A program made the translations under genes and the position numbers. DNA of 64,000 nt from Paraspadella gotoi (Eukaryota > Animalia > Chaetognatha): the NCBI GenBank assembly GCA_051294375.1, contig CM119267.1, forward strand, positions 26,624,872 through 26,688,871, in the 5' to 3' direction. A model generated the notes under the pieces. That model did not search any database. It had not been told where the DNA came from and saw only the letters and a list, made by a program, of their open reading frames with translations. Shown in pieces: positions 5,901-58,579 of the stretch (the first letter of the stretch is position 1; every line of letters starts with the position of its first letter).

Positions 5901-8900
5901 ATTAAAATAAATAAATAAAATGTAAAGAAAAATTTTGAGAGCCCTTCAGACATATGGCTATCGGATTCCTGAATTTGAATAGGGTAACTTGGAATGTTCA
6001 AAGAATGTCCTTAGAAATAGAAGGTTCTCACTTAAGAAAAGCACGGTTAGTAGAGCTCCCAGAAATACCATGCATTTTTGAAAGTTCCTGATACCTGTAA
6101 AGTTTCTTGTGCCAAATTCAGTGGAGAAAACGAATATCACAATAAAAAATTTCCCTGATGCTCTTGATGATTTTCCACGCCAGTTTTTTCGTCGTACCAC
6201 TTCCGGTTTTAAAAAATAAGGATTTTTGGAAAAAATGAGCTGTTATTCAGCCAGCATACTTAAATTATATCAAAATAAAGTTATTAATAACCTTATTACT
6301 AAATTTTTTGTTGTGGTTTTTAAATAAGGTTAAAAAATTATTATTAAGAAAGACTTCAAATTAGAAATTATTAGTTTTTTTAAGCCAAATCGTCCCTGAC
6401 CAAATTACTTTACAAATTCTAATAAGATTTATAAGAAAATATGATTTGGTTATATAAATAGAACTCTCTAAGGGATTTTAAATATTTAATCCTTAAGCCA
6501 GATATTGTCTTAAGGTTTGCCATGATCACAAAGAAGCAGCGAATTAGATAAAAGGCGCTTTGGCCTTTGTGGCTAGCAAGCCTCCCACTAACCTTAACCC
6601 TAACTCTCTCAACCAAAACCTTAGTCTAGGCCTTTTATTCATTTGCAAGCCTCAAATCTTTATCCCTAGTACAAGCCTTTCTAAGCTCGCTTATAACAAG
6701 ATTAGTATTGTGATATTGCAATTTGGACAGGCTAAGAAAAGGACAGGAAGCTTGGGTTAGGGTTAGGGAAAGTACTGGGAGAGGAATTAAGAATTAAAAC
6801 TTAGCCTATATGGATGGCGGGAAGAGGGATGCCTGAGTTGAGGCTCAGAGGTGAACCTCAGGCTGATGTGAGGGTTGGTGGAGAGGCTCTGGAGTGGATG
6901 CAGGGCTAGGGTTCTGGCATGATAAAACAGGAGGCCTAGGTTAGGGTTAGGGCTAGGAAGTGGCTCTCTGCAGATTTCACCAGCCAGGAAAACTGGTGAG
7001 GGTTGGATCAGGGACCGGTTTGGGGTTAAGGTTGAGCAGGAAGTACTCGAGCGTTAGGTGTTACTAGAAGGATTAGGGGTTTTTTCTCTGGCGCCGGTTC
7101 TCGCGTTCCATTGGTTTGCACCTCCTCGCTGCCCTTCGCTCTCGCCTCAACGTTTTTCGGCTATTCTCTGGGCGCTCCTTTTTTTGGAGGCGGTCATTGA
7201 CGCCCCGCCAGTATCTACATGCGCCATGGCGGTTTCGGAACTCTTCGATCTCGGCGTCGATCGCGGCATTATCTTTGGGGCCTGAGTCTTGTCCAGAGAC
7301 CAGTCGTTCTTCCGGCTTTTCTGTACGGACGTCTAGTGGGGCGCCTTATTGGGCGTTTTTCGGGACTTTTGACGCGTCCCCCAGCCCAGCAGCACTTCAA
7401 CGGAGTCGGCGCAACGTCGGGGCTGGGCCCTGCGGCAGCGCTGAGGCCGTGAGATAAGAAAAATAATTCCGTTCAGAATTTTATATTTTAAATTTGCAAA
7501 CAGGGATTAGGGGTAGGTAAAGTTTTGGGGGTTTAGGGTTAGGCATTAGAGTGATGTAAAAATGATAAAATTTTTGAAAATTAAAATTTAGCATATAAAA
7601 CATGAACGTAAATAGCGGAGGCCGACCGAATTAAAATTTTAATGGGAACAGCATTAAACTAATCCATTATTGGTATTAATTATTGCGTTAAAATATTTTT
7701 TTGCAAAAATGTTCCGAACCATGAGTAATTCGCTAATTAATATTATTATATTGCTATATAATGTCAAAAAATTGTTTTGGATATTTTAAGTTTTTTTAAT
7801 TGATTTTGATAGAGCTTAAAAAGTTAAGCAAAAAATATAATTATATCTTTTATTTGAAATTAAAGACGAAATCTTTTACATCAACAATTTTTATTTTTAA
7901 AGGTGCATACAAGTTTTGGCTTTCATTCAAGCCTTCATCAGTGCTTTGACAATTCACAATTTGATCTTTTTTTAAATTGACTTTGGGAGAGAGAGAGAGA
8001 GAAGAAATGGCCAACAAAGATGTGAGACAGGACAGTGGTGAAATGTGAGGACAGGTTTAAGAGAGAGAGAGAGAGAATGTGAGGGAAAAGAAATTAAATT
8101 TTGTGAGAGAGAGAGAGAGAGAGAGACAGAGAAGCAGAGGTAAACATTTGGTAGGAAAATTACATTAGATAATGTACAACAATAGTAAATTTAATAAATA
8201 AGTAAAAATAATTAAACAAACTAAATGATTTAAATTAATTCAGATTAAAATAAAGTGAATAAAGAAATGAAATTTAGATGAAATGGAAATAAGGATGTTG
8301 AGGGATAGGTAAGTAAAAGAGTAAGTGAAAAATAAGAAAAAGAAAAAGCTCAAAATGAGCTGGCCCCCCTGGGTCAACAATGGGGGATGCTGGCGATGTG
8401 GTCGGATCATTGGTTTGTCATAGGCTGAGAGGCTATTGTGGTGGAGTGCGACATGGACGGGCCAAGTGCAACTCGAATATCTCTCAGGCCTGATAAACCT
8501 GCCAACGGCCCTTGTCTCGCCTGTTGGCGAGGCGGGCGGTGGTCTGTTCTTGCCTGTTTTGCAACGGGAGTTACAGACTCCCTCTCCTCCTGCAACCGTT
8601 TTTTTGGTGGGCGCCCGGTCCGAGGAGAGTCGGACTGGGTTGTTGGAGAGGATGAGGCATCGGACATCCCTTGCGTATCGTATTTTCAGCTTTTTCTTTT
8701 TCTTATTTTTCACTTACTCTTTCACTTACTTATCCCTCAACATCCTTATTTCCATTTAGTCTAAATTTCATTTCTTTATTCACTTTATTTTAATCTGAAT
8801 TAATTTAAATCATTTAGTTTGTTTAAGTCTGTTTACTAAATTTACTATTGTTGTACATTATCTAATGTATTTTCATACCAAATGTTAACCTCTGCTTCTC

Positions 8901-9389
8901 TGTCTCTCTCTCTCTCACTCACAAAATTTAATTTCTTTTCCCTCACATTCTCTCTCTCTATCTCTCTTAAACCTGTCTTCACATTTCACCACTGTCCTGT
9001 CTCACATCTTTGTTGGTCATTTCTTCTCTCTCTCTCTCCCAAAGTCAATTTAAAAAAAGATTAAATTGTGAATTGTCAAAGCACTGATTAAGGCTTGAAT
9101 GAAAGCCGAAACTTGTATGCACCTTTAAAAATAAAAATCGTTGATGTAAAAGATTTCGTCTTTAATTTCAAATAAAAGTTATAATTATATTTTTTGCTTA
9201 ACTTTTTAAGCTCTATCAAAATCAATTAAAAAAACTTAAATTATCCAAAAAAATTTTTGACATTATATAGCAATATAATAATATTAATTAGGGAATTACG
9301 TTATCTAATGTATTTTCATACCAAATGTTAACCTCTGCTTCTCTCTCTCTCTCTCTCATTCACAAAAGTTAATTTCTTTTCCCTCACAT

Positions 9390-9420
<31 letters not shown>

Positions 9421-12375
9421 CCTGTCCTCACATTTCACCACTGTCCTGTCTCATATTTTTGTTGGCCATTTCTTTTCTCTCTCTCTCTCCCAAAGTCAAT
9501 TTAAAAAAGATCAAATTGTGAATTGTCAAAGCACTGATAAAGGCTTGAATGAAAGCCGAAACTTGTATGCACCTTTAAAAATAAAAATGGTTGATGTAAA
9601 AGATTTCATCTTTAATCTCAAATAAAAAAAGATTTAAAATTTTTGATAATTCACTTTTGACTCTCTTAATTGAACCAAGGCTCGGTACCTTAATTTTTAT
9701 GTTAGAGCTTTCTTAAGTATATCATTCTCTTCATTTTTTAAAGGGCTTTCTGAGGATATTAATATTGTTAATATTTTATTAATACTTTGTTTAAAAAAGT
9801 GCTAAAAGTTAAAGAAAAAAAAAATTTAAAATCAGTGAGTTGGAAAATGAAACCCGATTTTACAAGCCAACTTTTTCTACTCATTGTCAAGGCATATCTT
9901 AACCAGGGATGCTGGAGGCGCTAAATTTCGCCCGCCTCCCGAGACCCCCCTCGCCTCCGGTTTTGGTTCGCCTCTCATTTTAAGTACGGATCTGCTTATC
10001 AGCGGATCCGACTCTATTAATCACTTTTCTATAATCCTTTTTTCGTCGTCTGGTCGCCCCTCAATATTGTACCGGGCACAACACTTATTCATGTCAGACA
10101 ACATCGGAATTATTGATAAATTATTGCAAAAAAAATGGATGTCACGTGCCGTCCGTCTGTCACGTCCGTCGTCCGTCCGATCCGTCTTCTCAGGTCCGTC
10201 CCACCTTAAGCAAAAACACCATTACTCGTGATTGGAATGGATGATTTAAATGAAATTTTGTGTGAGGATAGGTAGTAACGTGTGTGGTGATTGACGATAT
10301 GAAGTTTCGATTGGAATCGTCCGAGTGGAACACTGAGTTTTAAATGGAAAAACAAAAAAATATAATTCACATAATTTGAGATACCAATTGCTCATGAGTG
10401 GATGGGCTGATTGACCTGGAAATTTTGTATGTGGGTAGGAAAGTGTGTGATGAACAGGAATCAGAGTTTCGATGGAATAGTTTGAGTGGAAATGAGTTTA
10501 AATGGAAAAAAACAAAAAACTGTTTTACTAAGTTGATTATGCTTCTTTTTCCTTTTATATAAATGTATCTGCAGGATTTTAATGAAATCGAAATAATTAA
10601 TCAGTTGTAATGTACTCAATTAGTAAATAAAGATTAATCAAGTAATTATGCATTAATTAGTTCAATTCAATCCGATCCATATCCCGGGTTTTTTTGCCCA
10701 TTTAGCAACAAAGCGTCCAATAACTCGTGATTGGCTGTTGGATTGGAATTAAATTTGTGTGTGTGGGTACGGATAGGAGGTGGTGGTGTATAAAGCTGGA
10801 TATGATTAATTTTTCGATGGAATCGTGTGAGTGGAAATTTAGTTAAATGGAAAAGAAACATAAGTCGAATTTACTCTAAGTATTCTTTACTTATTTGTTA
10901 ACCAATAAATATCTTCGCAATTTATCATAGATTGGATGGATAGATTGAGTTGAAATTTTTGGTGTTGTGGGTAGGAAAAACGTATGACGAAGCTTGATAT
11001 AAAGTGTCAGTGGAGAACGTACCAAGTTGTGGTAAACGTTTGAGGTTTTAAAATGTGGAAAAGAACTGTATGAGTCACATTTACCTTCGAAGATCTTTTT
11101 ATTTATCTTACGCGCGCAGTGATCAGATTGAGGATGAGATTTGTGAGCCGGGGTATTGAATGTGAAGGTGCAAGATAAGCTAGATATATATGATGAGGTT
11201 GTGACGGAATGCAAGTTTGAAAAATTTATGCAAGTTGAAAAAATGATAGCAAGTTAAAAATCTGTAAAAGCATAAGGTCGTCGCTAATTGCATAAAAAGA
11301 GAGAGAGATGAGAGAGAAAGAAGAGACGTGAGAGAGAGAGAGATGAAGGTGACAAAAAAGAGAGAAAGGAGAGAGAGTGGAGAGAGGAGAGAGAGAAGGA
11401 GACATTAACAATTAAAAAATCTGCTAAAAGACGTCAAGTATCGAGCCAGAGCCCCACTATCATAGAAAATTAGCTGAAAAATAACCGGGAAAAAAAACGG
11501 AATTGAAGCTGATCATGCGATAAACGAATTGTTGATCGTATAGTATTGATGTGAGGTAATACTGATTGATTATGTAATAGTGAATTTATTGATGTAATGG
11601 GGAATCGTGATTATTGATTGCTGATAATCAATTATTGATGCGGATATGTCATTGGTGACTACTGCTGTGATGAATAGTCATTCAGTGAATGGCCGATCGA
11701 TTGTCATTCATTGATGCGATGATTGTCCTTCATTGATGGCGATGATAGTCAATAAAACAAACAATGCGTGTATAGTGAAAGAGAGAGAGATAAGAGGAGA
11801 AGAGAGAGAGAGAGAAGAGACGAGAGAGAAAAAAGAGAGAGAGAGAGAAAGAGACGAGAGACAGAGAGAGAGAGAGAGAAGGAGAAGATATAGGAATAGG
11901 AATCCACGAGAAATCTCCTGGATGAAAATATGGGATTTTGTATTGGAAAAAAGCGGCGGAATAAATGGCAAATAATAAAGGTTTTAGAAAGGAAAAAAAA
12001 TAATCAGAATTTTCCAAAAAACAAACGATCACTGCAAAAGATCGGACAGATAGGGACAGACAACAAAAACACACAGAGAGACAAGGCAGAGAGAGAGAGA
12101 GAAAAAGAGGAGAGAGAGAGAGAGAGAGAGACAGGCCGCTGGCCAGAGAAAAGAGAAAGAGAAAGAGCGATAATATAATAATCTAAAGAGAGAGAAGAGA
12201 GAAGCTCTATATCAGCCCCTTTACCTCGTTAAAGAATCAGCAGTACTTATGGCGGCCGGCACGTAGCCGTGAGCTATTCTCTAACCCAAAGGACCCGGGT
12301 TGCGCCCTGTTCGCGGCATCGATTTTTTACATTAGTGACCCACATTATAGTCTAAAAAATTTTTTGTAAAAAAAA

Positions 12376-12413
<38 letters not shown>

Positions 12414-18400: not shown

Positions 18401-21400
18401 ACAAAAAATATATTACACTATTCGAACACCAATTACTCACGAGTGGATGGGGCGATTGACTTGAGAATTTTTATTGGGTAGAAAAGTGTGTGATTAAACT
18501 GGAAATCAAATTTCGATGGAATCGTTTGAGTGGAAATGAGTTTAAATTGAAAAAGCAAGAACCTGTTTAACTAAATGATTATGCTTCTTTTTCTTTTATT
18601 TTAAATCTAAATGCAAGATGTATTAATTTATCAAATAATTAACCAGTTAATAATCAATTAGTCAATTAAATAATAAATAATTAATTAATCAGCAATTAAT
18701 CAATAAAAACAAACATTTCGGATCAAATAGCCTAATTAATTAAATATTAACTGAATTAATTAATTATTAATTAATTAATTACCGATAATGATTGTCGGAC
18801 GATCCAACATTGTTTGCTCAAACTTGTTTTTACTAATTTTTATTCTAATCAATTTGCTTATTTATTCCTTAGGTTTATCACTTTGCTAAGTTCATTCTCA
18901 ATCATTTTTATTAATTAAATTAAAATAATTAAACTCGGACAGACGCTGGGTTGGCAAAAACTGGGTTTTTGTTTTTTTTTAAATTATAGATAGCATATTA
19001 ATTTTTTTTAAGATACAAATTTTTATATTAATTTCCTTTCTTTTCGTTGTTTTTGCAAATTAGAGAAAGACAAAGTTTATTTGTTTATGTACAACGATTT
19101 TATTTTTACATAGGACATGTTTCGGCTTTAAGTATAAGCCTTCATCAGCGTTTGATTAATCAGACAAATTTTTCTCTTAACATTGAGTCAGAGAGAGAGA
19201 GAGAGAGAGAGTTGAGAGAGAGAGAGAGAACAGAGAGAGAGAGAAAAGAGAAGAGAGAGTAAAGCTTCCAACAAAGGTTGAGATAAGGACAGTGGTCAGA
19301 TGAGGACAGGTGAAGGTAAGGAGAGAGAAGAAGAGGAAAGTGGTTGAAATGTGAATAGTGAAAATTTGAAGAGACAGAGAGAGAAAATATTTACGTTTTT
19401 TGTAATGTACAACAAAGATAAAGAATAATAATTCAATAACAACAAATAATATACTTAATGCTTAAACTAGTAGATTTAACGAGAAATATTTTAACTAGTT
19501 TTTAATTAAGATTGAAATAAGAGAAAGAGAAAGAAGAATGTGTGGTTAGGGATAGCTAAGTTGTAGAATTAGAGAAATAAAGATAAGAAAGAGCTCAAAA
19601 TGAGCCCATGACAAGTCAATGACCCGATCATATCATCAACGTCCTGCTTTTGCCAGGCCGGGGGGGCCAGCTCATTTTGAGCTCTTTCTTTATCTTTATT
19701 TTCTCTAATTCTACACTTAGCTATCCCTAACCACACATTCTTCTTTTCTCTTTCTCTTTATTTCAATCTTAATTAACAAACTAGTTAAAAATATTCTCAG
19801 TTAAATCTACTAGTTTAAGCATTAAGTATATTTATTTGTTATTGAATTATTATTCCTTTATCTTTGTTGTACATTACAAAAAATGTAAATATTTTCTCTC
19901 TCTCTGTCTCTTCAAATTTTCACTATTCACATTTCAACCACTTTCCTCTTCTTCTTCTCTCTCCTTACCTTCACCTGTCCTCAATCTGACCACTGTCCTT
20001 ATCTCAACCTTTGTTGGAAGCTTTATCTCTCTCTCTCTTTTCTCTCTCTCTGTCTCTCTCTCTCTCTCTCTGACTCAATGTTAAGAGAAAAATTTGTCTG
20101 ATTAATCAAACGCTGATGAAGGCTTATACTTAAAGCCGAAACATGTCCTATGTAAAAATAAATCGTTGTACATAAACAAATAAACTTTGTCTTTCTCTAA
20201 GATACAAATTTAAAATATTTATACTTCTTAAGTGATTAATGATAAAAATATATGAAAATATACTGATTATATTTAATAATAGTATTAATTAATTAATATT
20301 TTTTATGGTAAACAATGTAATAAATATAAATATTATATTTTTTGAATAAAACCTGTTATGAAAAAAGTGTATAAACTTAATTTTATTAGAAAATAGTAAT
20401 TAAATACTCAAAATAATTTGATATAAATATGCATCATAAACATTTAAATAAATTACTAATACATTGAAAATTGAAGTACATCTTTAGTACATGTTTTTGC
20501 CGAACTTGTCTTTTGGGCTAAAAATAAATTTTGATGTTTGGATATAATATTTGAGTTAGTAGAAGAAGTTTGAATTTGTTTACAACAACGATATTATTGG
20601 TACAAACTTCTTCTACTAATTCAAACACACCAAAACGAAAGGAAATTCGCGATGCCTAATATTTGAGTTAATAAAATATTAAGGTGTTTAATTAGGCTAA
20701 GATTTTTTCCTGAAGTCAATATATTATTTTCCCGCATTCTCGTTAATTTATTCCTGGTTAGGATACCTTTTCAGAGAATTCTTTAACATGTGACTTATAG
20801 TCAAATATATAATTTTATTGAAGTTTAATTTTTTCTGATAAATAGCTTTAAAAGACCCTAACCTTGTGTTAAATAATAACGAGAGAATAGCAATCATTTT
20901 TAATGTATCGCTCTTTACATAATTTGCGATTCATGATTAGGATTACTTAATATAAGGAAAATGGTACAGAAGCCAGCAACGAAAGTGATACTGATATTAA
21001 ACATGTAAAACATAGGTTTAGGGTTATTTTTTATCACTAAATTATATATTAAGCTTTGTAAAAATGATATATCTTATATGATTTAAATTTTTGCTTCAAC
21101 AATTTAATGTTTCATATTAAGAAATTAAGTAATTTTAAAAAAAAACAAAAAACCCACTTTTTAGTGGGTTTTTTTGGGTTTTTTGGCTGGGTTTTTTGGG
21201 TTTTTTTGGGTGGGTTTTTTAATGCCAACCCTGGACAGACGCCTCATTTTCTCAATGAATTCCCTGCGATTAACTTAAAATCCGCTTCACAGATTCAACC
21301 CTTTATGGAGACGGAGAACGAGTCAGGATTTGGCATCATCGAACGATGCCAACATGACCAGGTCAGACATAAAAACTTAGGATGTTTGATCCACGGACTT

Positions 21401-22940
21401 TTAGGTTTCGTTAATTTTTAGTCTAACATATATTTTTATCTCGCCAGATGGGCTAAAGCCCGTCTTGGGCGAGTTGTGGTTCTTCTTTGTGACCGTCGTC
21501 GTCGTCACGTTTTTTTATAATTGGAAATTGTAAAAGAGTATAACCATAAGAAGTTAAAAATTTAGGTTTGATTTCTCTTCAACAAGGTTTTTTAAATTGT
21601 CATAATTTATATCAATATTCGGATTTGTATGTTTTATTTACAAAACAATTATATCTATTTTTTATATAAAAACAATAACGAATTGCGATTGATTCTTATA
21701 AAATTGTGATATCATAAGAAGCTAAAAATTGAGATATGGCTTCTCATCATCAAGATCTTTAAAATTGTTATGTTTCATATTAATACTCGGATTTGTTTGT
21801 TTTATTTATATTTATAATTACAATTATGTTTTAATTATATGTTTGTTTTTTTTAAATTATATCATTTAAGGAAAAACTTGCCACACTTTCTGGAGGCATT
21901 GGTTCGAATCCCACCACTGCCATCACATTTAAAAAAAAACTCATGGGTTTTTGGATAAAATTAAAACAAGATTTATTCTGGGAATAAAATGGTAATGGTG
22001 AGTCACACGCAGGAGTCCAGATAAATTCTACTGAAATTAAAGAAGCTAGCAAGCAAGAGACATTTTTATAATTCTATTGTTTTTGCAAGCTGATTGGTCG
22101 AATCTGATTCCGCCTTTGACCATTCATGATTCATCGATTCCGATTCTGCGGAGATTGTTCGATCCTTCGATTCAATTTTGCTTTGGGTTAGGTTGATTCT
22201 CCCTCGATGATATGTTGCCCTCTCTCTTTTTTCGTTGCTGCCTCTTATGATTCATCTAAAAATGTGTTCAGCTCTGCAGCGGCTGTCCAGCTTTCTCTCT
22301 CACTCATTGCGTCAATGTATGACTATCATCGCGTCAATGTATAACTATCATCGCGTCACTGTATAACTATCATCGCATCAATGAATGACTGTCATTGCAT
22401 CAATGAAAGACTGTTATCGCATCAATGACTGACTATCATCGTATCAATGAATGACTATCATCGCATCAATGAATTATTATTATCATTTCAATGAATGACT
22501 ATCATCACATCTATAATTGGTTATCATTGTATCAATAATTAGTTATTATTGTATTAATAATTGGTTATTATCGCATCAATAATCATTTGTTATTACATCA
22601 ATAATCAATTACTATTATATCAATAATCAATTACTATTACATCAATAATCAATTATTATTACATTATTAATTTGTTTTCGCATCAATCATTCTTTTTTTT
22701 TTCTTTTTTTTATTAATTTTCTTTGATAATAATGTCTGGCGAGATCACTATACTTTAAGATCTTTTTCATTTTTATTTCTTTTTTCATTTTGTATTTTTA
22801 AATTCATTTCCCCCTTCAAGACTCCAAACACGGTGGTCCCGTTGGCAGTGGGCGCAGCTTTGGCGGCGCTGATCGTCCTTGTGTTGGTGCTGTACCTCAT
22901 TGGGCGCCGCAAGCTGCATCGCGGTTATCAGACGGTTTGA
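2236..22940 (+). CDS. LAMP: LAMP-family lysosome-associated membrane glycoprotein (single LAMP domain plus mucin-like stalk), 5 exons, about 376 aa
   Basis: Exons 2236-2911, 3041-3163, 17586-17728, 21293-21361, 22821-22940 join in frame via GT-AG introns (1131 nt). Signal-peptide-like N-terminus, Thr/Pro/Ser-rich stalk, LAMP-domain motifs GHSFAC, LR-IQPF and ERCQHD, TM helix VVPLAVGAALAALIVLVLVLYLIG, tail RRKLHRGYQTV* (GYxxPhi lysosomal sorting signal). Confidence 0.92.
3041..3163 (+). CDS. LAMP: LAMP exon 2
   Basis: ctcacAG acceptor; STNWLLLTFDSHKLIFVFVNDS...WRLYGITFTDR; donor GTGAGT at 3164. Confidence 0.85.
4871..5661 (+). mobile_element. Helentron-type non-autonomous element (HINE/DINE-1-like), family 1
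   Basis: 5' subTIR gtcggatctgc inside a palindrome, GTCC/GTCT microsatellite, internal ~125-bp tandem units, 3' subTIR gcagatcc(g/a)ac, hairpin gtttg-ct-caaac, T-rich insertion site. Confidence 0.8.
5663..5975 (+). repeat. Dispersed repeat
   Basis: Direct copy at about 36408-36740 (ttttaccggccaatgtagaa...gcccttcagacatatggctatcggattcctgaatt). Confidence 0.75.
7853..9630. mobile_element. Palindromic hammerhead-capped Penelope-like insertion A (three 3' ends)
   Basis: Minus-strand main copy ~8680-7853 with ORF C-terminus 8667-8407; inverted 3' UTR copy from 8687; third copy 9301-9628. Mutated hammerheads at 7907-7941(-), 9084(+), 9534(+). Confidence 0.85.
9981..12961 (+). mobile_element. Composite HINE family 1 element carrying an inverted family 3 HINE
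   Basis: HINE1 5' and 3' ends; internal (GA)n-rich insert from ~11260; collinear with 52298-55070. Confidence 0.75.
14952..15742. mobile_element. Probable solo LTR (BEL/Pao- or Gypsy-like termini)
   Basis: TGTT...AACA termini; flanks ctctg/ctctc (4 of 5 match as TSD); partial inverted copy at about 35858-36280. Confidence 0.55.
15745..16010. repeat. (CT)n-based microsatellite/minisatellite
   Basis: Repeated ctctctctctggct / ctctcttggt units. Confidence 0.85.
16315..16590 (+). repeat. Degenerate 18-19 bp tandem repeat (aaaaaatgatgcaagttg)
   Basis: Same unit as the arrays at 47630-48340 and 61160-61380. Confidence 0.75.
17586..17728 (+). CDS. LAMP: LAMP exon 3
   Basis: ttttccttAG acceptor; KTATWSVPPGPGTISAREGHSFACDAELKFRLMGNGLNATLETFDLR; phase matches exons 2 and 4. 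Confidence 0.88.
17832..18030 (-). mobile_element. tRNA-derived SINE-like element
   Basis: Minus-strand head gccattggtgcaggaggcaagtca...aaggtccggggttctagccc (A-box/B-box-like); second copy on + at about 31410-31601 with the B box partly deleted. Confidence 0.65.
18104..18828 (+). mobile_element. HINE family 1 copy (5' end clipped)
   Basis: Collinear with 4871-5661; ends cattgtttgctcaaacttgtt. Confidence 0.8.
19114..19148 (-). ncRNA. Minimal type I hammerhead ribozyme
   Basis: Reverse complement reads CTGATGA AGGCTT atactta AAGCC GAAA CATGTC. Confidence 0.8.
20113..20147 (+). ncRNA. Minimal type I hammerhead ribozyme (sense to LAMP intron 3)
   Basis: CTGATGA AGGCTT atactta AAGCC GAAA CATGTC. 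Confidence 0.8.
21293..21361 (+). CDS. LAMP: LAMP exon 4
   Basis: ttcacAG acceptor; IQPFMETENESGFGIIERCQHDQ; donor GTCAGA. Confidence 0.88.
21437..22762 (+). mobile_element. HINE family 2 element filling LAMP intron 4
   Basis: subTIRs atctcgccaga / tctggcgagat, partial 5' inverted repeat, (gtc)n tract, internal 22-bp minisatellite (tcatcgcatcaatgaatgacta) at 22305-22690. Confidence 0.7.
22821..22940 (+). CDS. LAMP: LAMP exon 5 (TM helix and GYQTV tail)
   Basis: TPNTVVPLAVGAALAALIVLVLVLYLIGRRKLHRGYQTV*; ttcaAG acceptor. Confidence 0.93.
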   Translation, partial: TPNTVVPLAVGAALAALIVLVLVLYLIGRRKLHRGYQTV

Positions 22941-24348
22941 TCGCCGCAATTATTTTCATTTAAAATATCATCCACTTTTTCTCATTTTGAAGTTCTACTC
23001 TCAAAATTTTGCAAGCGAATCCACGCAATTATACGATAATTTCGTTTTTATTTTAAACTGATCGATCTCAAAATCTTTTTGTGATAAATTAAACTTTATG
23101 ATATTGATATGATATTGCTGCCTTTAGAATTTGTTATTAAGGGGGAACAAAGTAAAAACTAAGAGTTCTGTAATATAAATAACGTTAGAGCATCCCTGTG
23201 GGATGACGAAATTAAAAAAAATTTAAGATTTTATATACAATTAATATTTAATAACACAAAAGCATTTAAAGTTTATCGTATTAATATAAATCATTATTTT
23301 TTTTTTTCAAAATCAGAATTTTTAAAAACGGATTTGGGTAGAGATTGAAAAAATAAATAAAAAATACTTTGCTAACTGATGGGTAGGTCCATCATCTCTA
23401 TCTCTCTATGAGTAAAGTCAAAGGAAAAGTCCAAAAACTAGGCATAAAAAGTATATTCTCTGAGAGGGAGCTCACGAGCTGAAGTAGAACCCAAGACAAC
23501 GAAAATCTCTCTCTTTGCTATCAAAATTTGTCGTCAATCCAAATTTTTCTTATGCGATTGCGACGATCCTTATGCTTTTAAGATTTTTTTTTTTTTTTGA
23601 GACAGTTGAGAAACGAGCACAGGACTCATCCACAAGGAGTGGGTTCGAGGCGCGAAAAGGGCGACACTAACTGATGGGTAGCTGCATCATCTCTATCTCT
23701 CTGAGTAAAGTCAAAGGAAAAGTCCAAAAAATGGGCAAAAAAAGTATATTCCCAAGACAGAAGTAAAATCTCTCTCTTTGCTCCTTCTGCCGTCGCTCGA
23801 TGAGGAGGAAGGGAAAGGGAGGAAAAGAGGCGGAAGAGGAAGAAGAAAAGGTGTCTCGAGCGAGAATGGGGAAGAGAAATGGGGGAATCCAGTGAAATAT
23901 ACTTATCCCTCTATCTGCTTTGCGGAGACAACTTTTTATGGGCTATCTGAATCCGTTCTTAAAAATTTTTTTTTTTTCATTGCCTATGCCTTGATAAATA
24001 TTTAAATGCTTTAATGTTATACTGTGCTTCACTAGTTAAAAAAGTGATAGTAAATATTGATTTAGTATATCATGAACAAATGAATTTTATATTACAGAAC
24101 TCTTAATGATAAAAAGTGATCAATTTTGTCAAATTAATATGACGACGAACTTCATTGTTTTACTTTCGTTAATCGCCTTTAACATTTTGTTTGTTTCCTT
24201 TTAGTTTTTTCTCGTTTTATTCTGTTTTGCGGACTAATGAGTAATGACTACTGATGAGTGATCTTCGATCGTGTATCGACTCCACCCAGAATTCGTCTCC
24301 TCGTCCTTCATGAAAAAAGAGTCTTCTTTGTCGCCGCGCCTTTTAAGG

Positions 24349-25261
24349 ATGAGCTTTTCTCTTCTTCGCCTCGCAGTTTTGGGTCTTTTCCTTCATTTCG
24401 TTTTCTTTTATTCGATTTTCGAAATTTACTTTAGTTCTCCTCTCGTGCAGAATCTCTCACCCATTCCGTCCCAAGGTCAGTTCCGCTTGTTCTTTCCCGT
24501 CCCCGTAAAGAGTCATTCTTTTCTCCTGCTCCCCTCAGCGCCGCCTTTGGCCCGTCGAGTTGTTCTCTTTGTTGCCGATGGACTCCGCGTCGACAAATTC
24601 TTGGAAATAAACAAACGAGGCGAATCTCGGGCGCCGTTCCTTCGCGACGTCATCCTGCGTCGCGGGGCCTGGGGCGTCTCGCACACCCGCGTACCGACCG
24701 AGTCGCGTCCTGGCCACGTCGCTCTCATCGCAGGTCCAAACTAAAAAGATTAGATTATGTAGATTTTCAATCTAGATGAATCTCGATTTTCTCTAGTAAC
24801 TAAGTTCCCCGCCGTTAAAAGGTTTTTACGAGGACGTCGGCGCCGTCGCCAAAGGATGGAAAGAAAACCCAGTGGATTTCGATTCTCTCTTTAACCAAAG
24901 CAGAGAGACGTGGTCGTGGGGAAGTCAGGACATCCTCCCCATATTTGCCAAGGGCTCTACCGGTAATCAACTAATCGATAGAGGAAAAGTATGATTAATT
25001 TTTTTTCAGTCTTGTACCGATTAAAACGGCAAGTGATCTTCTTCAGGTGACCGCGTCCACTTTTCGACCTACCCCTCGTCGTGGCAGGACTTTGACTCCA
25101 GCACTGACGCCTCCCGTCTGGATGCCTGGGTCTTCGATCAGGCATCAACATTCTTTGCCAACGCCTCCCGAGACCGAGATCTTCACGATCGACTTCAAAG
25201 AGATGGAATCGTGGTTTTTCTCCATCTCTTGGGTCTGGACACCAACGGTGAAACATTTGGC

Positions 25262-25321
<60 letters not shown>

Positions 25322-25629
25322 TGTTCTCATTAGTTATTCAAAGATAAATGAGATTTCGGTTTGACCCTAGACCCCTAGTTTGAATTCCCAGGCCACGGGT
25401 CCAAGCCCCATTCAGCTCAATACCTCGCTAACATCGAGTCAGTCGATGCCGGCGTCAAGGACTTCGTCGGCGTCGTCGAGAGGTTTTTCGCTCATGACGG
25501 CGCCACCGCCTTCGTCTTTACCGCCGACCACGGAATGACCGACTGGGGATCCCACGGCGCTGCTGACCCTGAGGAGACTATGACCCCTCTGGTCGCCTGG
25601 GGCTCCGGCATTAGGCGCCCGACTAAGAG
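24349..25629 (+). CDS. PIGN: PIGN exons 1-5 (N-terminal TM and luminal alkaline-phosphatase-like domain)
   Basis: Five exons separated by GT-AG introns of 63, 88, 84 and 144 nt; motifs [29 protein letters not shown]. Confidence 0.95.
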
Positions 25630-28600
25630 GTTTTCTAATTTTTCTCCTTTTTCACTTTGTCGGTCCGTCGGTCCCACCCACAATCTGATCGGTAAGTCTC
25701 TGAGATTATGTCAGAACATCGAATTATGATAAATTTTGCAAAAAAATCGATATCCGTCCGTCTGTCCGTCCCCCTGTCCGTCCCCCCTTAGCTTTGAATG
25801 CTAATTACTGTGGATAGGGCGATTGACTTTAAATTTTGTATGTGGGTACTGGGTAGTAGAGCGTAGTGAAAGTTGCATATGAAAATTCTATAAGTCAATT
25901 ATGAATAATGTACCACTAGTAAATAGTAATTTGAAAAAAAATTATTGTTTTTTTAATTTTCGCATTCGAGTATATTTATCGTCGAAATCGTTTTGCGTTT
26001 GCGACGATCTTGTTACGCTTTTGTGCATAAGTGGCGTTGACGTCGTCATTGTCGTCAGCGTTCCAAATTATAGATCGCCTTTTTTATGATTAAATTTGGG
26101 AATTTATATACAGCTTCTCATCATCGATGTCCTTAAAATTGGGTCAGGACAGTTATTAAATGCTTTGTTTACATTTTATCAAAACAAACAAATTTTTTTT
26201 GTATCCTCTCTCTCTTTTCTCCTTTATATGTAGCTAGCTCTCTCTCTTTTCCCCAGTGCTTATTCATCGGAAATAAAACGAGTCTGCAGTTGGCTCTGCA
26301 GGGGCTCTTTCTTTTTCTCTCTTCTCTTCTGCTGCTGCCTTTTGATTTCTTTCTCTTTGTCTGGCTGCTGCCGCCACTGCTGATTAGTCCGAAAACGATT
26401 TGGCTTTCTCTCTCTCTTTCTTTCTCATCGCATTCGTGCAAGTTATCATTTTGCTATCGCAACATCGGATTTTTTTTATTTTTTTTTTATTTTTTTTTTT
26501 GGAAACTGTAACTGTAATTTTTCTCGGTATTTTATTATTTTTTTAATTGACTATCGCAAAATAGAGTTTTTCTTTCTGTTTATATATTAATTTTCTTTTC
26601 TAAAATTTTTTTTCTCAGGGGCTGCGTCTGCTGATCAGTTTATTTGACAATGACAATTAACAATGAGAAAAAGAAAAACTTTTACATTTTTTTTTCAGAA
26701 ACNNNNNNNNNNAAAAAGAAAAACTTTTTCATTTTTTTTCAGAAACTGTAACTTTAATTTTCCTCGGTACTTTATTATTTTTTTTAATTGACAATCGCAA
26801 AATAGAATTTTTATTTCTGTTTATAAATTAATTATCTTTTCTCAAATTTTCTTATTTTTAGTATCAAAATTTGTCGTCAATCCAGATTTTTCTTATGCGA
26901 TTGCGACGATCTTTATAAATATATATATATTAATTATATAGTACTAAATAGAGAAAACATCGTCTTTTTTCCTGGTGGCTCGATTTCGATAAATTTGGTA
27001 CCGATCGACGTGGAATTACGTCTAGTTGACTGAAATAAAATGTCATTAAAGTCGGTCCACGCGTTCAAAAGTTATGGGCAAAAAACGACGAAAAAATAGC
27101 GCCTTCCGAGGGATCAACTTTCGCTGCTCAACGAGCGAAAAAGTGGTTAACATAAGATTTGAACTACGTAGTTCTAATCTTTAGTCCGACGGAATCGACA
27201 GTAAAGCCGAAATCCTTGTTCCGGGCCAAATAGAAATAAATGAAAAATTATGGAGCTGACTACGGAAAGAAAATGTTGACATAGGAAACAAATTTATAAG
27301 AGAATGAGGAAATATGATTACTGATAAAACTTAAAGAAGTAATTGGATGATAATTTAATACAAATTTGTTTACAATTGGATGACAACGACTCCCGTGTCA
27401 CCCTTTTGATTATTCGCCGCTTTTATCTTCAGTCCTCATTAATAACTAACTTTATTACTTTGCTTTATGCAAGGTATATGTTGCTGCATCAACAACAACA
27501 ACCGCGACAAGGAGGTTGACCTTAACCAAGTCATAACTGACATTTAACCAAGGTCGGGTTACTGAACTTTAACCTACTTTACCTTCTTCCTATTGTTTAT
27601 TGTTTTCCGTTATTTTCTTACTAACCATTTCAATCATTACAAAAAACAACTCTCCAAAAATCACTAAAGTCCGATCCCAAACTTGTGAACTCATCTTGCC
27701 ACATTTTTTACACAAGCTTTTCATGCTTACTTGTGTGAAAAAAAAATATCTCCTCTCAAAACGAATTCAACATGGACGGATTCATTCCCAGACAAAGCAT
27801 TGGACGCGCACACTTCTGCCATGAACTTGCTCGGCGTTGGCGCCACCCGGACTTTTCCAGCCGCCAGCATCACCCCCGGTCCAGTCCAGTGGGATCATTC
27901 GTTGGAACGCCACATGAAACTTGTGGAGAAGTCAGAGAACTTGAACTTAAAAGGCATTCTACCTCACTCTCAAAGCTGTCTAAGATGGTAGACTTGAGAC
28001 TTGCCTTGAGAGGCTGCAGCCAGAATGTTGTTAAATAGGGTGGGGAAAGATAGAGGGAAAGAGGTGGATGGAGAGAGGGGAAATGGAGGATGAGGGGGGA
28101 GGTGACCAGGTCGGCTGGGCCTGGTTCACTCCATCAGAGAACAGACTCACAGGTCACCTTGACGTCCTCAGTTTATTTTTACATTCGCCGACCGGGATTT
28201 TGTGGTTGCTTATTTGTTTTTTGCTTTTATAGAAATCCCATAACGCAAAAATGGAAAAAAGGTTAAACTTTTTATTAAAAATATATTTCAGAAAATAAAT
28301 AGTTGATGAAAATAATTTCAAACTTTTTCTAAATCTTATACACAACGAAAAAGAAAGGATTACAATACAAGATTTCATTTCAAAAACTCTACGAACTACC
28401 AATACACCCTAACTACCCCTATCCACCCCTTAGACCTGACCACCCTTAACCCAATTGCTAACCGTTTAAAAATATCATCAAAATAGCAATTAAAATAAAT
28501 TTAAAACAATTATTCTTGCAAAACTGAAGACAGCGCCGCCTAGAACTCATGCTCGCCAAGTCCGTCCCGCCGCGGCTCGAGGATTGGCTCCCGGCCGGGT

Positions 28601-31600
28601 GAGACGGGGAAGAGTTACTTGGTGGTGGCAGCGAAGCCTTTGGCGTAGTTCGCAGTGATAGTCGGTCTTGACTCTTGGGAAGGCGGTCACGGCGGCGGTC
28701 GTGAGTTGCCCAATAGAGTGGACCACTAAAGAACAAAAAAATTATTTGAATGATCAAACAAGGATCTTTAGACGTGAGATAGTATAATTAACTAGTACAA
28801 AAAATATTTTGTTCATATTGTCTCGGGAACAGTATAGTTCGTAAAGTATAGTATAAAAAAATACAATATATTTGTAGTAACATTCTTATAAAATGAAGAG
28901 GCGGCGGCGCGGAATAATGGAACCAAGATGGCGACGGAGGCGGCGCTGAAGAAAGGTTATATGACAGAGATGGAGGTTTGCTGAAAACACCGGAAAGTGA
29001 TCTCCCGGCGCCGAAAAACGGCGTCGTTGAGCGAGACGAATTCGGGGTCCGAGAAACGAAGAAAAAGACGCTCTTCAACTTCAGAGACAAGATTCGGTGT
29101 TGTCGGGGTCGGAGGCAGCGATACGAATGAGAGAGACGTCAGAGCAAATTCTAAATATAGGAAATTAAATAATCAATTAGTCAATAGTTATCTAATTTAA
29201 TTGGAGAAACATTAGAAGTATTGGGAGACTAGGTGAAGTAAAGTTTGATTTAACAATTTACGATAATAGATTAGACAAACAACAACACGCAACCTTAAAC
29301 GTGAGACGAAGCTCAGGGACTGCTTATATACGATATTTTCACTTACAATTATTGTGTCTCTTCAATGATCTCATTCTATTGCCCAATGCTCATCAATTTT
29401 TTGGTCAACCAAATTATTAACTTCTCGGCTACGATTATATGTTGAATGTCAGTTTTAGAGTGATCATGTAACTACTATTTCAAAAAACTGTTGATGCATT
29501 TTAAACAGAGATAAATTTTAAAACACTTGCAAATCCACCTGTTTCGAAACGGCGAAGAACCCCGTCGTAGACCTCACAGAGAGGGAGACGTCGTCAGGAA
29601 AAAAGCGGTGCTGAAAACCGGGATCGCAGGCGCCGTAATATTTATTTAAATTGTTTATTTACTTGGCGTCTTGTCGATATTTAATTGAGTACTTTATTAA
29701 AATAAAGCATATAGATAGTCAAACAGACAGTCAATAAATACTACTGCTAATTAATAAAAGTAATAATCACTATAAAACAAACAGTTACAATTAATCACGA
29801 AATCAAATCCCGATGACGAGCCGAAAGTCAATACCAAGTGTCCGTTCGCGAGTGATACCAAAAAAATATTGTTGGAGAACTACTGGAAGCTTTTTATGCA
29901 TAAGTTTGTGTTTAATTAATTTACAATTCTATGTTGAATTTTTTATCTAACACAGTAAAATTGGCGAAAAAAGACCATTTTAGACGTGTTCTTGAGTGCA
30001 ATAAATTTTATATTAAACTTTTAAAGAGACATAGAAATAATTGGTAAGCGATTTGTAATGAGCGGGATTCAAGAGTATATTTACAGAAGATATTTGGCAA
30101 ATAAGTAAACGATGACCTCAGAGCATAAACAATATAAACAATATCTTCGACCAAAGTGGCAAAGTGTCTTCCACAACATCATAAGAAATCCCTATTAATG
30201 GTCTAATTAATGACGTATCTGATTTATAGTAATGTTTAAAAAATTTTGAGTAATGATTTTTTATTTATTTTTTTATTTGTAAATTTAAGTTTTCTTTGTG
30301 CATTCGTCTAATAAGGAAACAAGTTAGAGCAAACAATGTCGGATCTGCCTACGATAATTAAGCGGTAATAAGCTAATCAGATGATAAATGACGATAATTC
30401 TTTTAATCTGTGATCATAACAGATCGTACAATACCTAACCAATGGCTGCACAAGTGCACAACTGCACATAGAAAAATTGCAAGCGATTTATATGTATAAC
30501 TATTATAATTTTTTCAACTTTTTTTTAACTTGCAACATTTTTTCAACTAAACTTTATATTCTGCTCAACCACACACTTTCCTACACACACACAAAATTTC
30601 ATCTCATTCTATCCATCTAATTATGAATAATTTGAATAATTATGGGTTAAAATTAGTATAAATATTCAAGAAAATGTGACTTATATATTTCATCAAAATT
30701 TATATCCAGGTTCGTCACACAATTTCCTACAAAATTTCATCTCAATCTATCCATTCAGTTATTAATAATTATGTAATTATGGGTTAAAATTATAAAGAAA
30801 TGCAAAGTTTTTGAATTTGTTACAACAAATTTATTTATAAATATGGACATGTTTTGGCTTACATTTTTGAGCCTTAAAATTAATAAAAAGATTAAAGTAA
30901 AAGTTACTTATGTTTTTCCATTTAAACTTATTTCCACTCGCACGATTCCATGTTCAGCTCTATCAAACACTTTTTTACCCACACACAAAATTTCATTCCA
31001 ATCCAACAATCCAATCACGAGTAATTTGAGTTATTTTATAAGGGGGACGGACAGACATACAAACTTTTTTTTGGAATAATTTATTATAATTTGATGTCCA
31101 GACATGATTTAAGTTAAAGCCCGACAAGATTGAGGGGGCAGACCGACAGACCGACAGTGAATTATATAGTCGGAATTTGCTGATAAGCAGATCTGACTAA
31201 AAATGCTGTCCTGACCATGTTCATGACTGTCTTGAATAAATATTTTATATTATAAGGATTCCCAGTTAACGCTTCATTTAATGGTTAAATAAATTTAAAT
31301 AATTTAAAATAATTAATAAGTAATTAATTTATAATAATTATATTTTTAAAAAGGAGTCGGAGCATTAAAGAAAGGTTTTACATAAGTATATATAAAATTA
31401 ATTGGTAAACTAAAATCCACCAATCGTTCATCAGCGGCCATTAGTGCAGGAGGCAAGTCATTTGCCTCCCAACCCAAAGGTCCGGGGTCGGTGGTCGCCT
31501 TGCAGTTAAGAGGGACGGGGCATTTAACCCGCCTATAACACGGTGTTCCAGCCTGATCTGAAGCTCAGGGACTGTTTATATTGAACGGTTCTGTCACTAA

Positions 31601-33203
31601 CTTTTGTCTCTCTATCTTTCTAGTTAACTTACACTTATTCTTAATTTATTCTGAACCTTAGTTTTACCCAAATATTAATATAACCAAATTAAAAAATAAT
31701 AAAAAATCATATCTGAATTAATTAATTAATTAATTAATTCCTTTAATTTTTTGTTTATGAAAAATTATCCTTTTCTGTTTGTTTTGTTACTTTTCTTTTT
31801 CCATTAATTTTTTAAGAAGACCAAATAACCAACGAGGTTAAAAAACAAAGCAATGTTTAATCCTTTAAATTAAACTCATTCTGACTATATAATTTTTTTT
31901 ATAATCATATAAAAAAATTTGTTGTGAAAAATTAAAAAATTGTTTTGTCTAAAGAAAGTAGTTAAATTTTTTTTTATAAAAAAATAAAATTTAAATTTAA
32001 AAAAATACTCTTTTCGTTGTTTTTTGAGGTATTAGGACAAAAACAGTTTTTATTTGACAACGATTTAATTGACACAATTTAGTCAGACATGTTTCGGCTC
32101 TTTCTTTTAGAGCCTTCATCAGTGCTTTTGACAATCAATATTTAGTCTCTGTTGAAGTAAGTTTTGAGAGAGAGAGAGAGAGAAAAAAATTTCCAACAAA
32201 GATAAGGTAAGGGACAGTGGTCAGATGTGAGGACAGCTGAAGGTAAGGAGAGGGAAGAAGTAAGTCTTTGAAAAATGAAAAAGAGTGAGAGAGAGAGAGA
32301 GAGCAAAGCAAAAATTTAAACAATACATTTAGCAATGTACAACAGAGATAAAGTGCATTAAATAATCTAAATATAAACTGAAATTAAATGTTAACAACAG
32401 AAATAAATAAGTTAGTAGAATAAAGTGAAATTTGAAATAGAAAATAAGTGGTGAGGGATAGATAAGTAAAGAAAAGTGAAAGTAAGTAAAAGAAAGAGCT
32501 CAAAAATGAGGCCTCTCAGCAGGCAATGGACGTCCGATACCTTTCCTGAGCCTGTAGCAACTTGGCGCGACTCTCCTCGCGCTGAGCGTCGCCCAAAACG
32601 ACGGCTACAGGAGGAGGGAGAGGAGTCTGTATCTCCTATAGCAAAACAGGCCAGAACAGGCAACTGCCTGCCTCACCGTCAGGTGAGAGGAGGGCTGTCG
32701 GCAGGCTTATCAGGCCAAAGGGATATACGAGTAGCATTTGGCATTTTCCCAGGCGGATCTCTTCCGGATCCCAGCATGACAAACTCAACATATATACCCT
32801 CGCAACCTATGACAGGCCAATGACCCAACCTTATCGTCAACGTCCTCCATTTGCCGGGGGGGCTAGCTCATTTTTGAGCTCTTTCTTTTACTTACTTTCA
32901 CTTTTCTTTACTTATCTATCCCTCACCACTTATTTTCTATTTCAAATTTCACTTTATTCTACTAACTTATTTATTTCTGTTGTTAACATTTAATTTCAGT
33001 TTATATTTAGATTATTTAATGCACTTTATCTCTGTTGTACATTGCTAAATGTATTGTTTAAATTTTTGCTTTGCTCTCTCTCTCTCTCTCTCACTCTTTT
33101 TCATTTTTCAAAGACTTACTTCTTCCTCTCCTTACCTTCAGCTGTCCTCACATCTGACCACTGTCCCTTACCTTATTCTTTGTTGGAAACTCTCCCTCAA
33201 TTT

Positions 33204-33234
<31 letters not shown>

Positions 33235-43419: not shown

Positions 43420-44067
43420 ATATTTTTTTTCTTTCATCTAAAGTGATATTATATTAATTTAGGAAAGAAACAAAAATTTCGTTAGTTTAGCAACATTGTT
43501 TTATTACATAATGGACATGTTTCGACTCTTGAATTCGAGTCTTCATCAGCATTTGAAAATTCACAAACTTTTAGTTATTATCAATAACTTTGGAGAAGTG
43601 AAAAAAAGGAGAGAGAGATTTGAGAGAGAGAGAGAAAGAAAGAGAGAGTGTTTCCCTCACCTTTATCTTATCTATCCCTCACAACTTATTCTTCACTTTC
43701 AAATTTCAATTCTCAATTTTTTTACTATTTCAAATGTCCAATTTTCACAAACAATTAAATTTATTAACCTTTGTTACTTATTTTATTTTTTTCTTTTTCT
43801 TTGTTGTACATTGTCTCCCTCTCTCTCTCTCTTTTCACCAAATCTTAAATTTGCTTACTCTTCTTCTTTTCCTTCACTTTCACCTGTCCTCAATTCTGAC
43901 CGACTATCCTTTACCTAATTCATTTCTTCATTTCTTTCTGTCACTCAAATCTCTTTCTCCTTTTTACTCTCTCTCTCTCTTCAAAGTTATTGATAATAAC
44001 TAAAAGTTTGTAAATTTTCAAATGCTGATGAAGACTCGAAGAGTCAAAACACGTCCATTCTGTAATA
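43420..44067. mobile_element. Hammerhead-capped Penelope-like insertion E (right end lost in gap)
   Basis: Short inverted left arm with intact hammerhead 43514-43549(-); plus-strand copy ~43650-44067 with hammerhead 44025-44055 (GAAA changed to AAAA). Confidence 0.85.
43514..43549 (-). ncRNA. Minimal type I hammerhead ribozyme
   Basis: Reverse complement reads tg CTGATGA A GACTC gaattcaa GAGTC GAAA CATGTC ca. Confidence 0.8.
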
Positions 44068-44167
44068 NNNNNNNNNNNNNNNNNNNNNNNNNNNNNNNNN
44101 NNNNNNNNNNNNNNNNNNNNNNNNNNNNNNNNNNNNNNNNNNNNNNNNNNNNNNNNNNNNNNNNNNN
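44068..44167. other. Assembly gap (100 N); a 10-N gap is at 26703-26712
   Basis: N runs in the sequence. Confidence 0.99.
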
Positions 44168-58268: not shown

Positions 58269-58579
58269 ATATTCTATTTATATATAGCTTTATATTTATT
58301 ACTTATTAACCTTTATTACTAAGTATTATAAAGGCTTATTTAATAAAACTTAAAAGGTAAGAAAATTAAACTTACTTGCCATGTTTAATATGAGATAGGG
58401 TTATGGTTAAGCCAAATAACAAAAAATTTTACCAATAAATAGGTAAATAAGTAAGTTTAATAAATGTAATCAGTATAATAATAAAGTTATTATTAATAAT
58501 ATTAATAATAATGATAAAATAAATATTAATAATAATTAGAATTATGATAATATTTAAAAATTTGTACTAAAATTATTAA

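What the first reader, a model, noticed from the sequence alone, without database searches (positions are those of the whole stretch)
8340..32885. Inversion breakpoint recurs at one hairpin motif, GCTCA(T)4-5GAGC
Seen: in three sequence-diverged insertions (A at ~8687, B at ~19605, C at ~32510) the inverted arm starts at or within the same gctcattttgagc(tc) hairpin, which follows a G-run about 50 nt after the ORF stop. The main copy is truncated at different points in each. Insertions D, E and F have shorter arms. Inference: the inverted arm is copied from a discrete RNA or cDNA with a fixed 5' boundary (transcription start, RT strong stop or processing site), not from random twin priming.
Basis: partly seen in the sequence, partly recalled or inferred. 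Interest (0 to 1): 0.7.

Follow-up and report, generated by a model that had tools for sequence, protein, structure and literature searches.

The report
Penelope mirror arms end at hairpin
These are head-to-head double copies of a ribozyme-bearing jumping gene, likely of the Penelope class, whose shorter mirror copy ends at the same 14-base spot in five of the six junctions where it could, likely because that spot is where the element's RNA starts; the layout is known, but the fixed end offers a test of how these elements build their mirror ends.

Summary
With the hairpin's G as +1, arms A, B and C start at +5, +1 and +2. Two junctions from other genomic copies in public contigs fall at -3 and +8 (one low-depth contig each). 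F spans a broken hairpin but its arm starts at +370. The copies are 72-82% identical to each other, arms are 97-99.6% identical to their own main copy, and B, E and F have separate 13-15 bp target duplications, so they are independent insertions. They are Penelope-like: hammerhead, one-sided 33-38 nt tail, inverted truncated copy; no RT or endonuclease was shown. The hairpin itself is probably incidental (no covariation, broken in F). The invariant parts are a G-run and an initiator-like TCATTT. Best reading (0.5): the arm is a reverse transcript running from the tail to the transcription start, joined by microhomology to a separately primed main copy. Rival (0.3): stalling at the G-run. Palindromes at inverted Penelope junctions are in print (PMC3846280), and this scan reached similar readings in other genomes.

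The parts
7855..8681 (-). Insertion A, main copy: ORF C-terminus (stop 8407-8409), G-run 8364-8369, hairpin 8348-8360, U/C-rich UTR, hammerhead near 7908-7941; no tail
8682..9299 (+). Insertion A, inverted arm starting at +5 of the hairpin; its last 135 nt mirror non-element flank DNA (97% identical)
9297..9650 (+). Third partial copy (A3) in tandem with the arm, starting near +179, 94% identical to both A copies
19009..19022 (+). Target-site duplication of B, left copy (14 bp; right copy 20198-20211)
   Evidence: 1 of 292 random zone pairs reached 14
19023..19605 (-). Insertion B, inverted arm starting at +1 of the hairpin, with hammerhead and 37-nt tail (19023-19059)
19606..20200 (+). Insertion B, main copy: stop 19620-19622, G-run 19660-19666, hairpin 19670-19682, hammerhead from 20113; no tail
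32008..32510 (-). Insertion C, inverted arm starting at +2 (to +5 given 3-nt microhomology), with hammerhead and tail; outer tail end not defined
32511..33375 (+). Insertion C, main copy: 103-codon ORF end (stop 32821-32823), G-run 32856-32862, hairpin 32866-32879, hammerhead from 33284; no tail
38745..39250 (.). Unit G: long no-tail copy (-, from about +102) with a short tail-bearing arm (+, from about 39148) that starts inside the hammerhead and matches its partner only weakly
43446..44068 (.). Unit D: left copy (-, from +324, no tail) and right copy (+, from +30; 3' end lost in an N gap)
57644..58281 (.). Unit E: tail-bearing longer copy (-, from +179), no-tail shorter copy (+, from +224), 13-bp target duplication
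58565..59513 (.). Unit F: main copy (-, from -269) with a broken hairpin but intact G7 and TCATTT; tail-bearing arm (+, from +370); 15-bp target duplication. The counter-example.
62735..62850 (.). Unit I: tiny head-to-head stub of the element's 3' end, tail on the left copy, both copies downstream of the hammerhead

Best explanation
Each unit is a single insertion of a likely Penelope-like retrotransposon, and its short inverted arm is likely a reverse transcript that ran from the tail back to the RNA's start, predicted to lie at the TCATTT inside the hairpin. Shown: the head-to-head layout, the hammerheads, a one-sided tail, target duplications in B, E and F, the clustered arm ends, and short microhomology at the C junction. 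Inferred steps: (1) the element's endonuclease cuts both strands of AT-rich DNA with a 13-15 nt stagger; (2) one DNA end primes in the leader (the pseudo-LTR/ORF junction, where the tail is naturally present) and is copied about 500 nt until the template ends at the transcription start, giving a tail-bearing arm with a fixed 5' limit; (3) the other end primes at the RNA's 3' pseudo-LTR, where no tail follows, and is truncated at a variable point, often inside the ORF; (4) the two cDNA 3' ends are joined through 1-6 nt of microhomology with slight trimming. Arms that abort early (F, G, I, one copy each of D and E) end downstream. The hairpin marks the site but need not act as a hairpin.
For: Clustering at -3 to +8 in 5 of 6 informative junctions. 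In B, C and F the tail is on the arm and the extra ORF sequence is on the main copy, so neither copy can have been made from the other. None of 7 tail-bearing copies extends upstream of the motif, against 4 of 12 no-tail copies (p=0.13, not significant). E has the tail on the longer copy, which this model allows. TCA-TTTTGAGC and G6 are invariant in 4 of 4 main copies although F has lost the 5' stem; TCATTT fits the initiator consensus TCAKTY (consensus recalled, from no call). D. virilis Penelope starts transcription inside the 3' UTR/pseudo-LTR at a TATA-less internal promoter (PMC2377424, results and discussion read). Anolis Poseidon protein cleaves and extends both target strands and initiates internally, at two sites bounding the tail, on RNA spanning the pLTR-ORF junction (PMC11167929, main text read). 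Contig loose ends give the normal sequence upstream of C's main copy and imply a 3-nt overlap with the arm end. In C's arm the tail is predicted to close a stem-loop (z=-2.5); in B's arm the same pairing is weak (z=-1.2).
Against: No transcript evidence was obtained. By inspection, none of the 5 junctions shows an unambiguous extra G from copying a cap. The X5/X7 junction appears to run to -3, 7-8 nt past the initiator-like A, and stops exactly before the G-run. TCAKTY is common: 292 matches in the window, about a 3% chance in any 15-nt zone. Arm A has no tail and continues 135 nt into flank DNA, so it cannot be a leader copy; it needs a read-through RNA from a 3' pseudo-LTR or a DNA-level fold-back. 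The two outside junctions are single contigs of depth 4 and 5.9 with sides of 25 and 32 nt, below the tool's own caution levels. In unrelated hammerhead repeat families from metagenome contigs, only 1 of 10 distinct inverted units folds at a recurring upstream palindrome, and in L004/L010, L012 and L025 both copies run past it. No RT or GIY-YIG domain was found.
Confidence: 0.5

Rival explanations
1. Polymerase stall: the RT making the arm runs through about 400 nt of unstructured U/C-rich UTR and stops at the first strong barrier, the G6-7 run (an RNA stem, or a very stable RNA:cDNA hybrid if it trails a first RT and must displace its cDNA); the cDNA end may snap back on the palindrome and be released, then be trimmed.
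For: The UTR has about 0 to -6 kcal/mol per 50 nt up to the hammerhead, and the G-run/hairpin zone is the first stable fold. 12-mer RNA:DNA hybrid energy is about -11 on average in the UTR (minimum -17 to -19) against -27 to -30 at the G-run. GC content steps from 0.21-0.26 to 0.57-0.67. The longest arm (X5/X7) ends right before the G-run.
Against: Main copies pass the same barrier (4 in the window, 2 in contigs). E has the tail on the longer copy, against a trailing RT on one RNA. The G-run stem shows no compensatory change in 4 copies.
Confidence: 0.3
2. Self-priming or DNA-level fold-back: a cDNA or broken DNA end folds back, anneals at the palindrome and copies the main copy, as proposed for rotifer Penelope junction palindromes.
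For: Arm A mirrors 135 nt of flank beyond the element's end, as a fold-back predicts. PMC3846280 reads palindromes at inverted junctions as self-priming (discussion read). L003 folds exactly at a palindrome.
Against: In B, C and F the arm carries a tail that the main copy lacks, so it was not copied from the main copy. The junction is not centred on the palindrome: 58-355 nt of upstream sequence lies between the copies.
Confidence: 0.12
3. Chance plus detection bias: arm starts are really scattered.
For: Only 3 of 8 window units end there (p=0.048 on the loosest null); contigs yielded just two junctions, in a well-conserved stretch.
Against: p=0.002 among the four spanning units, and 2 of 2 outside junctions hit the zone named beforehand.
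Confidence: 0.05
4. A, B and C descend from one pre-formed palindrome.
For: The main copies of A and C start about 6 nt apart; neither has a clean target duplication.
Against: Arm and main are 96.6-99.6% identical within a unit but 72-82% between units; B has a different spacer and its own duplication; the contig junctions have two further spacers.
Confidence: 0.03

Closest known systems
Endonuclease-positive Penelope-like elements with inverted pLTR and tail: Adineta vaga Pen2a, Pen2, Pen3a (PMC3846280; parts 1-4 of 5 read, i.e. the main text)
   Same: Head-to-head inverted pLTR, optional ~31-bp tail on one end, target duplication, palindromes at the pLTR 5' end (18 bp and 38 bp) and at inverted junctions, TATA/Inr-like motifs in the pLTR.
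   Different: There the palindromes lie at the junction and are read as self-priming. Here the palindrome bounds only one copy, a variable 58-355 nt spacer separates the copies, and the tail sits on the bounded arm. Target duplications are longer here (13-15 bp against 8-10). Supplements not seen.
Drosophila virilis Penelope (PMC2377424; results, start of discussion and passages read)
   Same: The transcription start and internal promoter lie in the 3' UTR/pseudo-LTR; tandem copies flanked by inverted repeats; 34-bp tail.
   Different: Its inverted repeats are described as varying in size; no fixed arm end is reported in what I read. No DPE or intron was identified here: no GT[AG]AG splice-donor match on the sense strand of the UTR in A-E, G or H.
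Poseidon of Anolis carolinensis, in vitro (PMC11167929; main text read)
   Same: Hammerhead in the pLTR, AT-rich targets, two RT start sites bounding a tail, both strands cut and extended.
   Different: There the ORF starts at hammerhead stem II; here that frame is not open in B or F (read by eye), so the start codon is not established. The paper does not address where inverted arms end.
LINE-1 twin-priming inversions (recalled; one paper seen only as a search listing)
   Same: Two primers from one cut site, junction microhomology.
   Different: L1 inversions flip a non-overlapping upstream part; here both copies duplicate the same 3' end.

Membership tests
EN+ Penelope-like elements | Single ORF with RT and GIY-YIG endonuclease | tested here: inconclusive
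   Only 72-103 C-terminal codons lie in the window, conserved in frame (56-61% identity). No Pfam hit, no homolog, and one spurious repetitive hit among 1.84 billion proteins.
EN+ Penelope-like elements | Minimal type I hammerhead in the pseudo-LTR | tested here: met
   15 motifs in the window; helix II has 2 of 5 pairs with compensatory changes in 9 copies. Rfam gave no hammerhead hit. Cleavage not tested.
EN+ Penelope-like elements | Inverted 5'-truncated copy adjacent to the 5' end | tested here: met
   Units A-G and I
EN+ Penelope-like elements | 30-40 bp tail on one end only | tested here: met
   37 nt in B, 38 in F, 33 in E; also on one end of C, G and I; absent in A; D unknown
EN+ Penelope-like elements | Target-site duplication in AT-rich DNA | tested here: met
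   3 of 7 units tested: B 14, E 13, F 15 bp. A has a 12-bp candidate; C, D and G have none convincing.
EN+ Penelope-like elements | Partial tandem forming a direct pLTR ahead of a full ORF | not testable with these tools
   No full-length copy in the window; no genome held.
Naiad/Chlamys PLEs | Lack of canonical hammerheads | tested here: not met
   Hammerheads are present; definition from PMC8557442 passages.
Non-LTR retrozymes | Non-coding tandem units, each with a hammerhead | tested here: not met
   Copies are dispersed, inverted and carry an ORF end; definition from bioRxiv 10.64898/2026.07.22.740005, part 1 of 5 read.

The most novel reading that the evidence does not exclude
Penelope-like insertions are built from two cDNAs primed at opposite ends of one transcript: a tail-bearing strong-stop-like leader copy that ends at the transcription start and a variably truncated 3' copy. 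Inverted-arm ends then map the promoter of any PLE family from genomic DNA alone, and the same leader copy, if joined in direct orientation, would regenerate the pseudo-LTR.
Probability: 0.4. Interest if true: 0.65.

Novelty: new member of a known kind. Interest (0 to 1): 0.42.

Why it matters
How Penelope-like elements make their inverted and tandem ends is stated as unresolved in PMC8557442 and PMC2377424 (passages read). This family separates the two copies unusually well: the candidate start is about 420 nt upstream of the hammerhead and 500 nt from the tail, so a fixed end on one copy is visible. It gives a one-experiment test (5' RACE, or an in vitro RT stop map) between a transcription-start boundary and a G-run stall. 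The element class, the layout and junction palindromes are already known, and this scan has noted similar readings in other genomes.

Tried and rejected
No genome is held, so the genome-wide breakpoint plot could not be made. No RNA holder was listed. Laying contigs on C's main copy alone showed no strand-changing joint among 15 of 17 joints shown; contigs collapse inverted repeats, so this is no evidence. In one search, of 8 joints, five were divergence skips inside the arm, one (X6, opposite strands) was an ordinary colinear copy also seen, and two were inversion junctions; X5 and X7 give near-identical figures and were counted once. Viral contigs: 0 matches. The 31 metagenome loci are other hammerhead repeat families; no RT or endonuclease was checked in them, and the part comparing them with the window was cut from view. 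Protein searches for the ORF end failed. My first reading of the ORF end as a GIY-YIG motif was dropped: that frame has stops, while the conserved frame is a different, low-complexity one. The hairpin as a conserved structure: 0 of 12 consensus pairs covary in 4 copies, and folding z-scores were -4.1, -0.6, -1.5 and +0.5 for C, B, A and F. Rfam hits were low-scoring miRNA matches to fold-backs, all below the gathering scores. A ribozyme processing site at the hairpin was rejected: the only ribozyme motif is 397-443 nt downstream. Literature searches found no paper tying inverted-arm ends to the transcription start; none held both 'Penelope' and 'strong-stop' except a Copia paper seen as a listing. 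Subscription papers such as Evgen'ev and Arkhipova 2005 and Arkhipova 2006 are not in the library and may cover it; no supplements were opened.
Full report
Setting. The window is AT-rich animal-like DNA with intron-split host genes: a LAMP-family exon at 22821-22937 and PIG-N exons up to 41557. No whole genome is held. Self-comparison finds a dispersed repeat family of which A, B and C are members.

Anatomy. Read in the sense of the element, a copy has: the end of an ORF, conserved in frame among A, C and F with in-frame indels and ending SQPMTxQ-stop; 42-47 nt later the hairpin, preceded by a G6-7 run; about 400 nt of U/C-rich UTR with CT microsatellites; a minimal hammerhead whose helix II covaries; about 60-70 nt more; and, on some copies, a 33-38 nt tail. 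Units are head-to-head with both 3' ends outward. B, E and F are bounded by 14, 13 and 15 bp direct duplications, reached by 1, 2 and 1 of 292 random zone pairs; C, D and G have none convincing and A has a weak 12-bp candidate. This is the layout described for endonuclease-positive Penelope-like elements (PMC8557442 passages; PMC3846280). The RT and endonuclease were not seen: the ORF end has no family or homolog hit, so membership rests on the non-coding hallmarks.

The observation. Numbering the hairpin's G as +1, arms start at +5 in A (8682; about +11 if one mismatch is excluded), +1 in B (19605) and +2 in C (32510). In F the main copy spans the motif, with a broken 5' stem, and the arm starts at +370. 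D, E, G and I have both copies downstream. So 3 of 8 units, and 3 of the 4 that could, end at the motif; simulated chance is 0.048 and 0.002. To get outside data I laid public contigs on the arm plus spacer of C. Of 8 joints, two are inversion junctions from other copies: one whose arm appears to run to -3, just before the G-run, joined to a main copy starting near -150 (X5 and X7, counted once), and one whose arm starts at +8, in the loop, joined near -85 (X8). Both are single low-depth contigs with short sides, and the microsatellite part of the arm was skipped, so they are support, not a census. With them 5 of 6 fall within 14 nt (p=5e-6 on a uniform null, optimistic).

Independence. Arm and main are 96.6, 98.7 and 99.6% identical within A, B and C, but the units are 72-82% identical to each other. 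Spacers differ, except that A and C start about 6 nt apart. Contig loose ends show the ordinary upstream sequence of C's subfamily and imply a 3-nt overlap at C's junction; F's junction has a 6-nt overlap. A single pre-formed palindrome is therefore unlikely.

What fixes the boundary. The hairpin is weak as a cause: no covariation, unremarkable folding in three of four copies, broken in F. What is invariant in 4 of 4 main copies is the G-run and TCA-TTTTGAGC. Two readings fit. First, a transcription start: TCATTT matches the recalled initiator consensus, A starts exactly at its A and C is compatible with that, and D. virilis Penelope starts transcription in the equivalent 3' UTR/pseudo-LTR (PMC2377424). 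The hexamer is common, though, and one junction overshoots it. Second, a stall: the G-run is the first stable RNA fold and by far the strongest RNA:DNA hybrid after 400 nt of weak sequence.

The tail decides against simple fold-back. In B, C and F the arm has the tail and the main copy has the ORF sequence, so each was copied from a template that the other lacks. Purified Anolis Poseidon protein extends both target strands and starts reverse transcription internally, at two sites bounding the tail, on RNA spanning the pLTR-ORF junction (PMC11167929). On a transcript that starts in the upstream pseudo-LTR, priming there copies only the leader and must stop at the RNA's start, with the tail attached; priming at the 3' pseudo-LTR gives a tail-less copy that can run into the ORF. 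This predicts that tail-bearing copies never pass the motif: 0 of 7 do, against 4 of 12 tail-less copies (p=0.13). It also allows E, where the tail-bearing copy is the longer one, which a trailing-polymerase stall does not easily allow. I give it 0.5 against 0.3 for the stall. A does not fit as a leader copy: its arm has no tail and mirrors 135 nt of flank, so it needs a read-through RNA from a 3' pseudo-LTR or a DNA fold-back. Earlier notes of this scan on other genomes suggested looking for a cap-derived G; I see none unambiguously in 5 junctions.

Comparison set. Thirty-one metagenome loci with the same hammerhead core belong to other families. By my reading, ten distinct inverted units among them have scattered arm ends, and only L003 folds at the recurring upstream palindrome; several are near-symmetric fold-backs. 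They mix families, so they neither confirm nor refute a family-specific start, but they show that a palindrome alone does not fix the end.

Novelty. PMC3846280 already reports palindromes at pLTR 5' ends and at inverted junctions and explains them by self-priming. My eight searches found no paper linking arm ends to the transcription start, but older subscription reviews were not searchable and no supplements were opened. The scan's own notes report similar readings in other genomes; these are unchecked and are not support. Verdict: a real, non-random feature of a new family of a known class, with a modestly new mechanistic clue; interest 0.42.

Noticed in passing
window 2212-2991 and 22821-22940: A Thr/Pro-rich exon and a LAMP-family transmembrane exon (Pfam Lamp2_2nd, E=1e-13); A and B would lie in its introns if these are one gene.
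   Followed up: partly
window 24271-41560: PIG-N-like gene (Pfam PigN E=6e-12, Sulfatase E=3e-5); C and G lie between its exons.
   Followed up: partly
window 59461-59500 and 39210-39250: The tails of F and G both end at ATGAA, and those of E and B end at about the same place, so the ORF may start at the tail end rather than at the hammerhead.
   Followed up: no
window 38745-39250: Unit G's short tail-bearing arm is clearly diverged from its partner, hinting at two different RNA templates in one insertion, or at age.
   Followed up: partly
window 19300-19330, 32225-32255, 38950-38985, 49780-49800, 57875-57895: A conserved UTR box reads as a splice-donor-like AGGTAAG or GGTAAG on the antisense strand in several copies; antisense transcription has been proposed for PLEs.
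   Followed up: no
window 28300-28370, 49625-49960, 288-505: Single-ended pieces of the same family: a tail-only stub (J) and two tail-less fragments (H, Z) without an arm.
   Followed up: partly
window 1-287 / 3455-3746 and 38420-38740 / 45270-45570: Large fold-back structures with arms of about 300 bp, 3.2 and 6.5 kb apart, unrelated to the PLE; Z and G sit at their inner edges.
   Followed up: no
window 6600-7100 and 34555-34610: Degenerate TTAGGG/CCCTAA-rich stretches inside the window.
   Followed up: no
L003, L008, L015, L016, L020, L025, L027, about 55-65 nt upstream of the hammerhead: A recurring GGATCC-centred palindrome in unrelated hammerhead repeat families; L003 folds back exactly on it.
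   Followed up: partly
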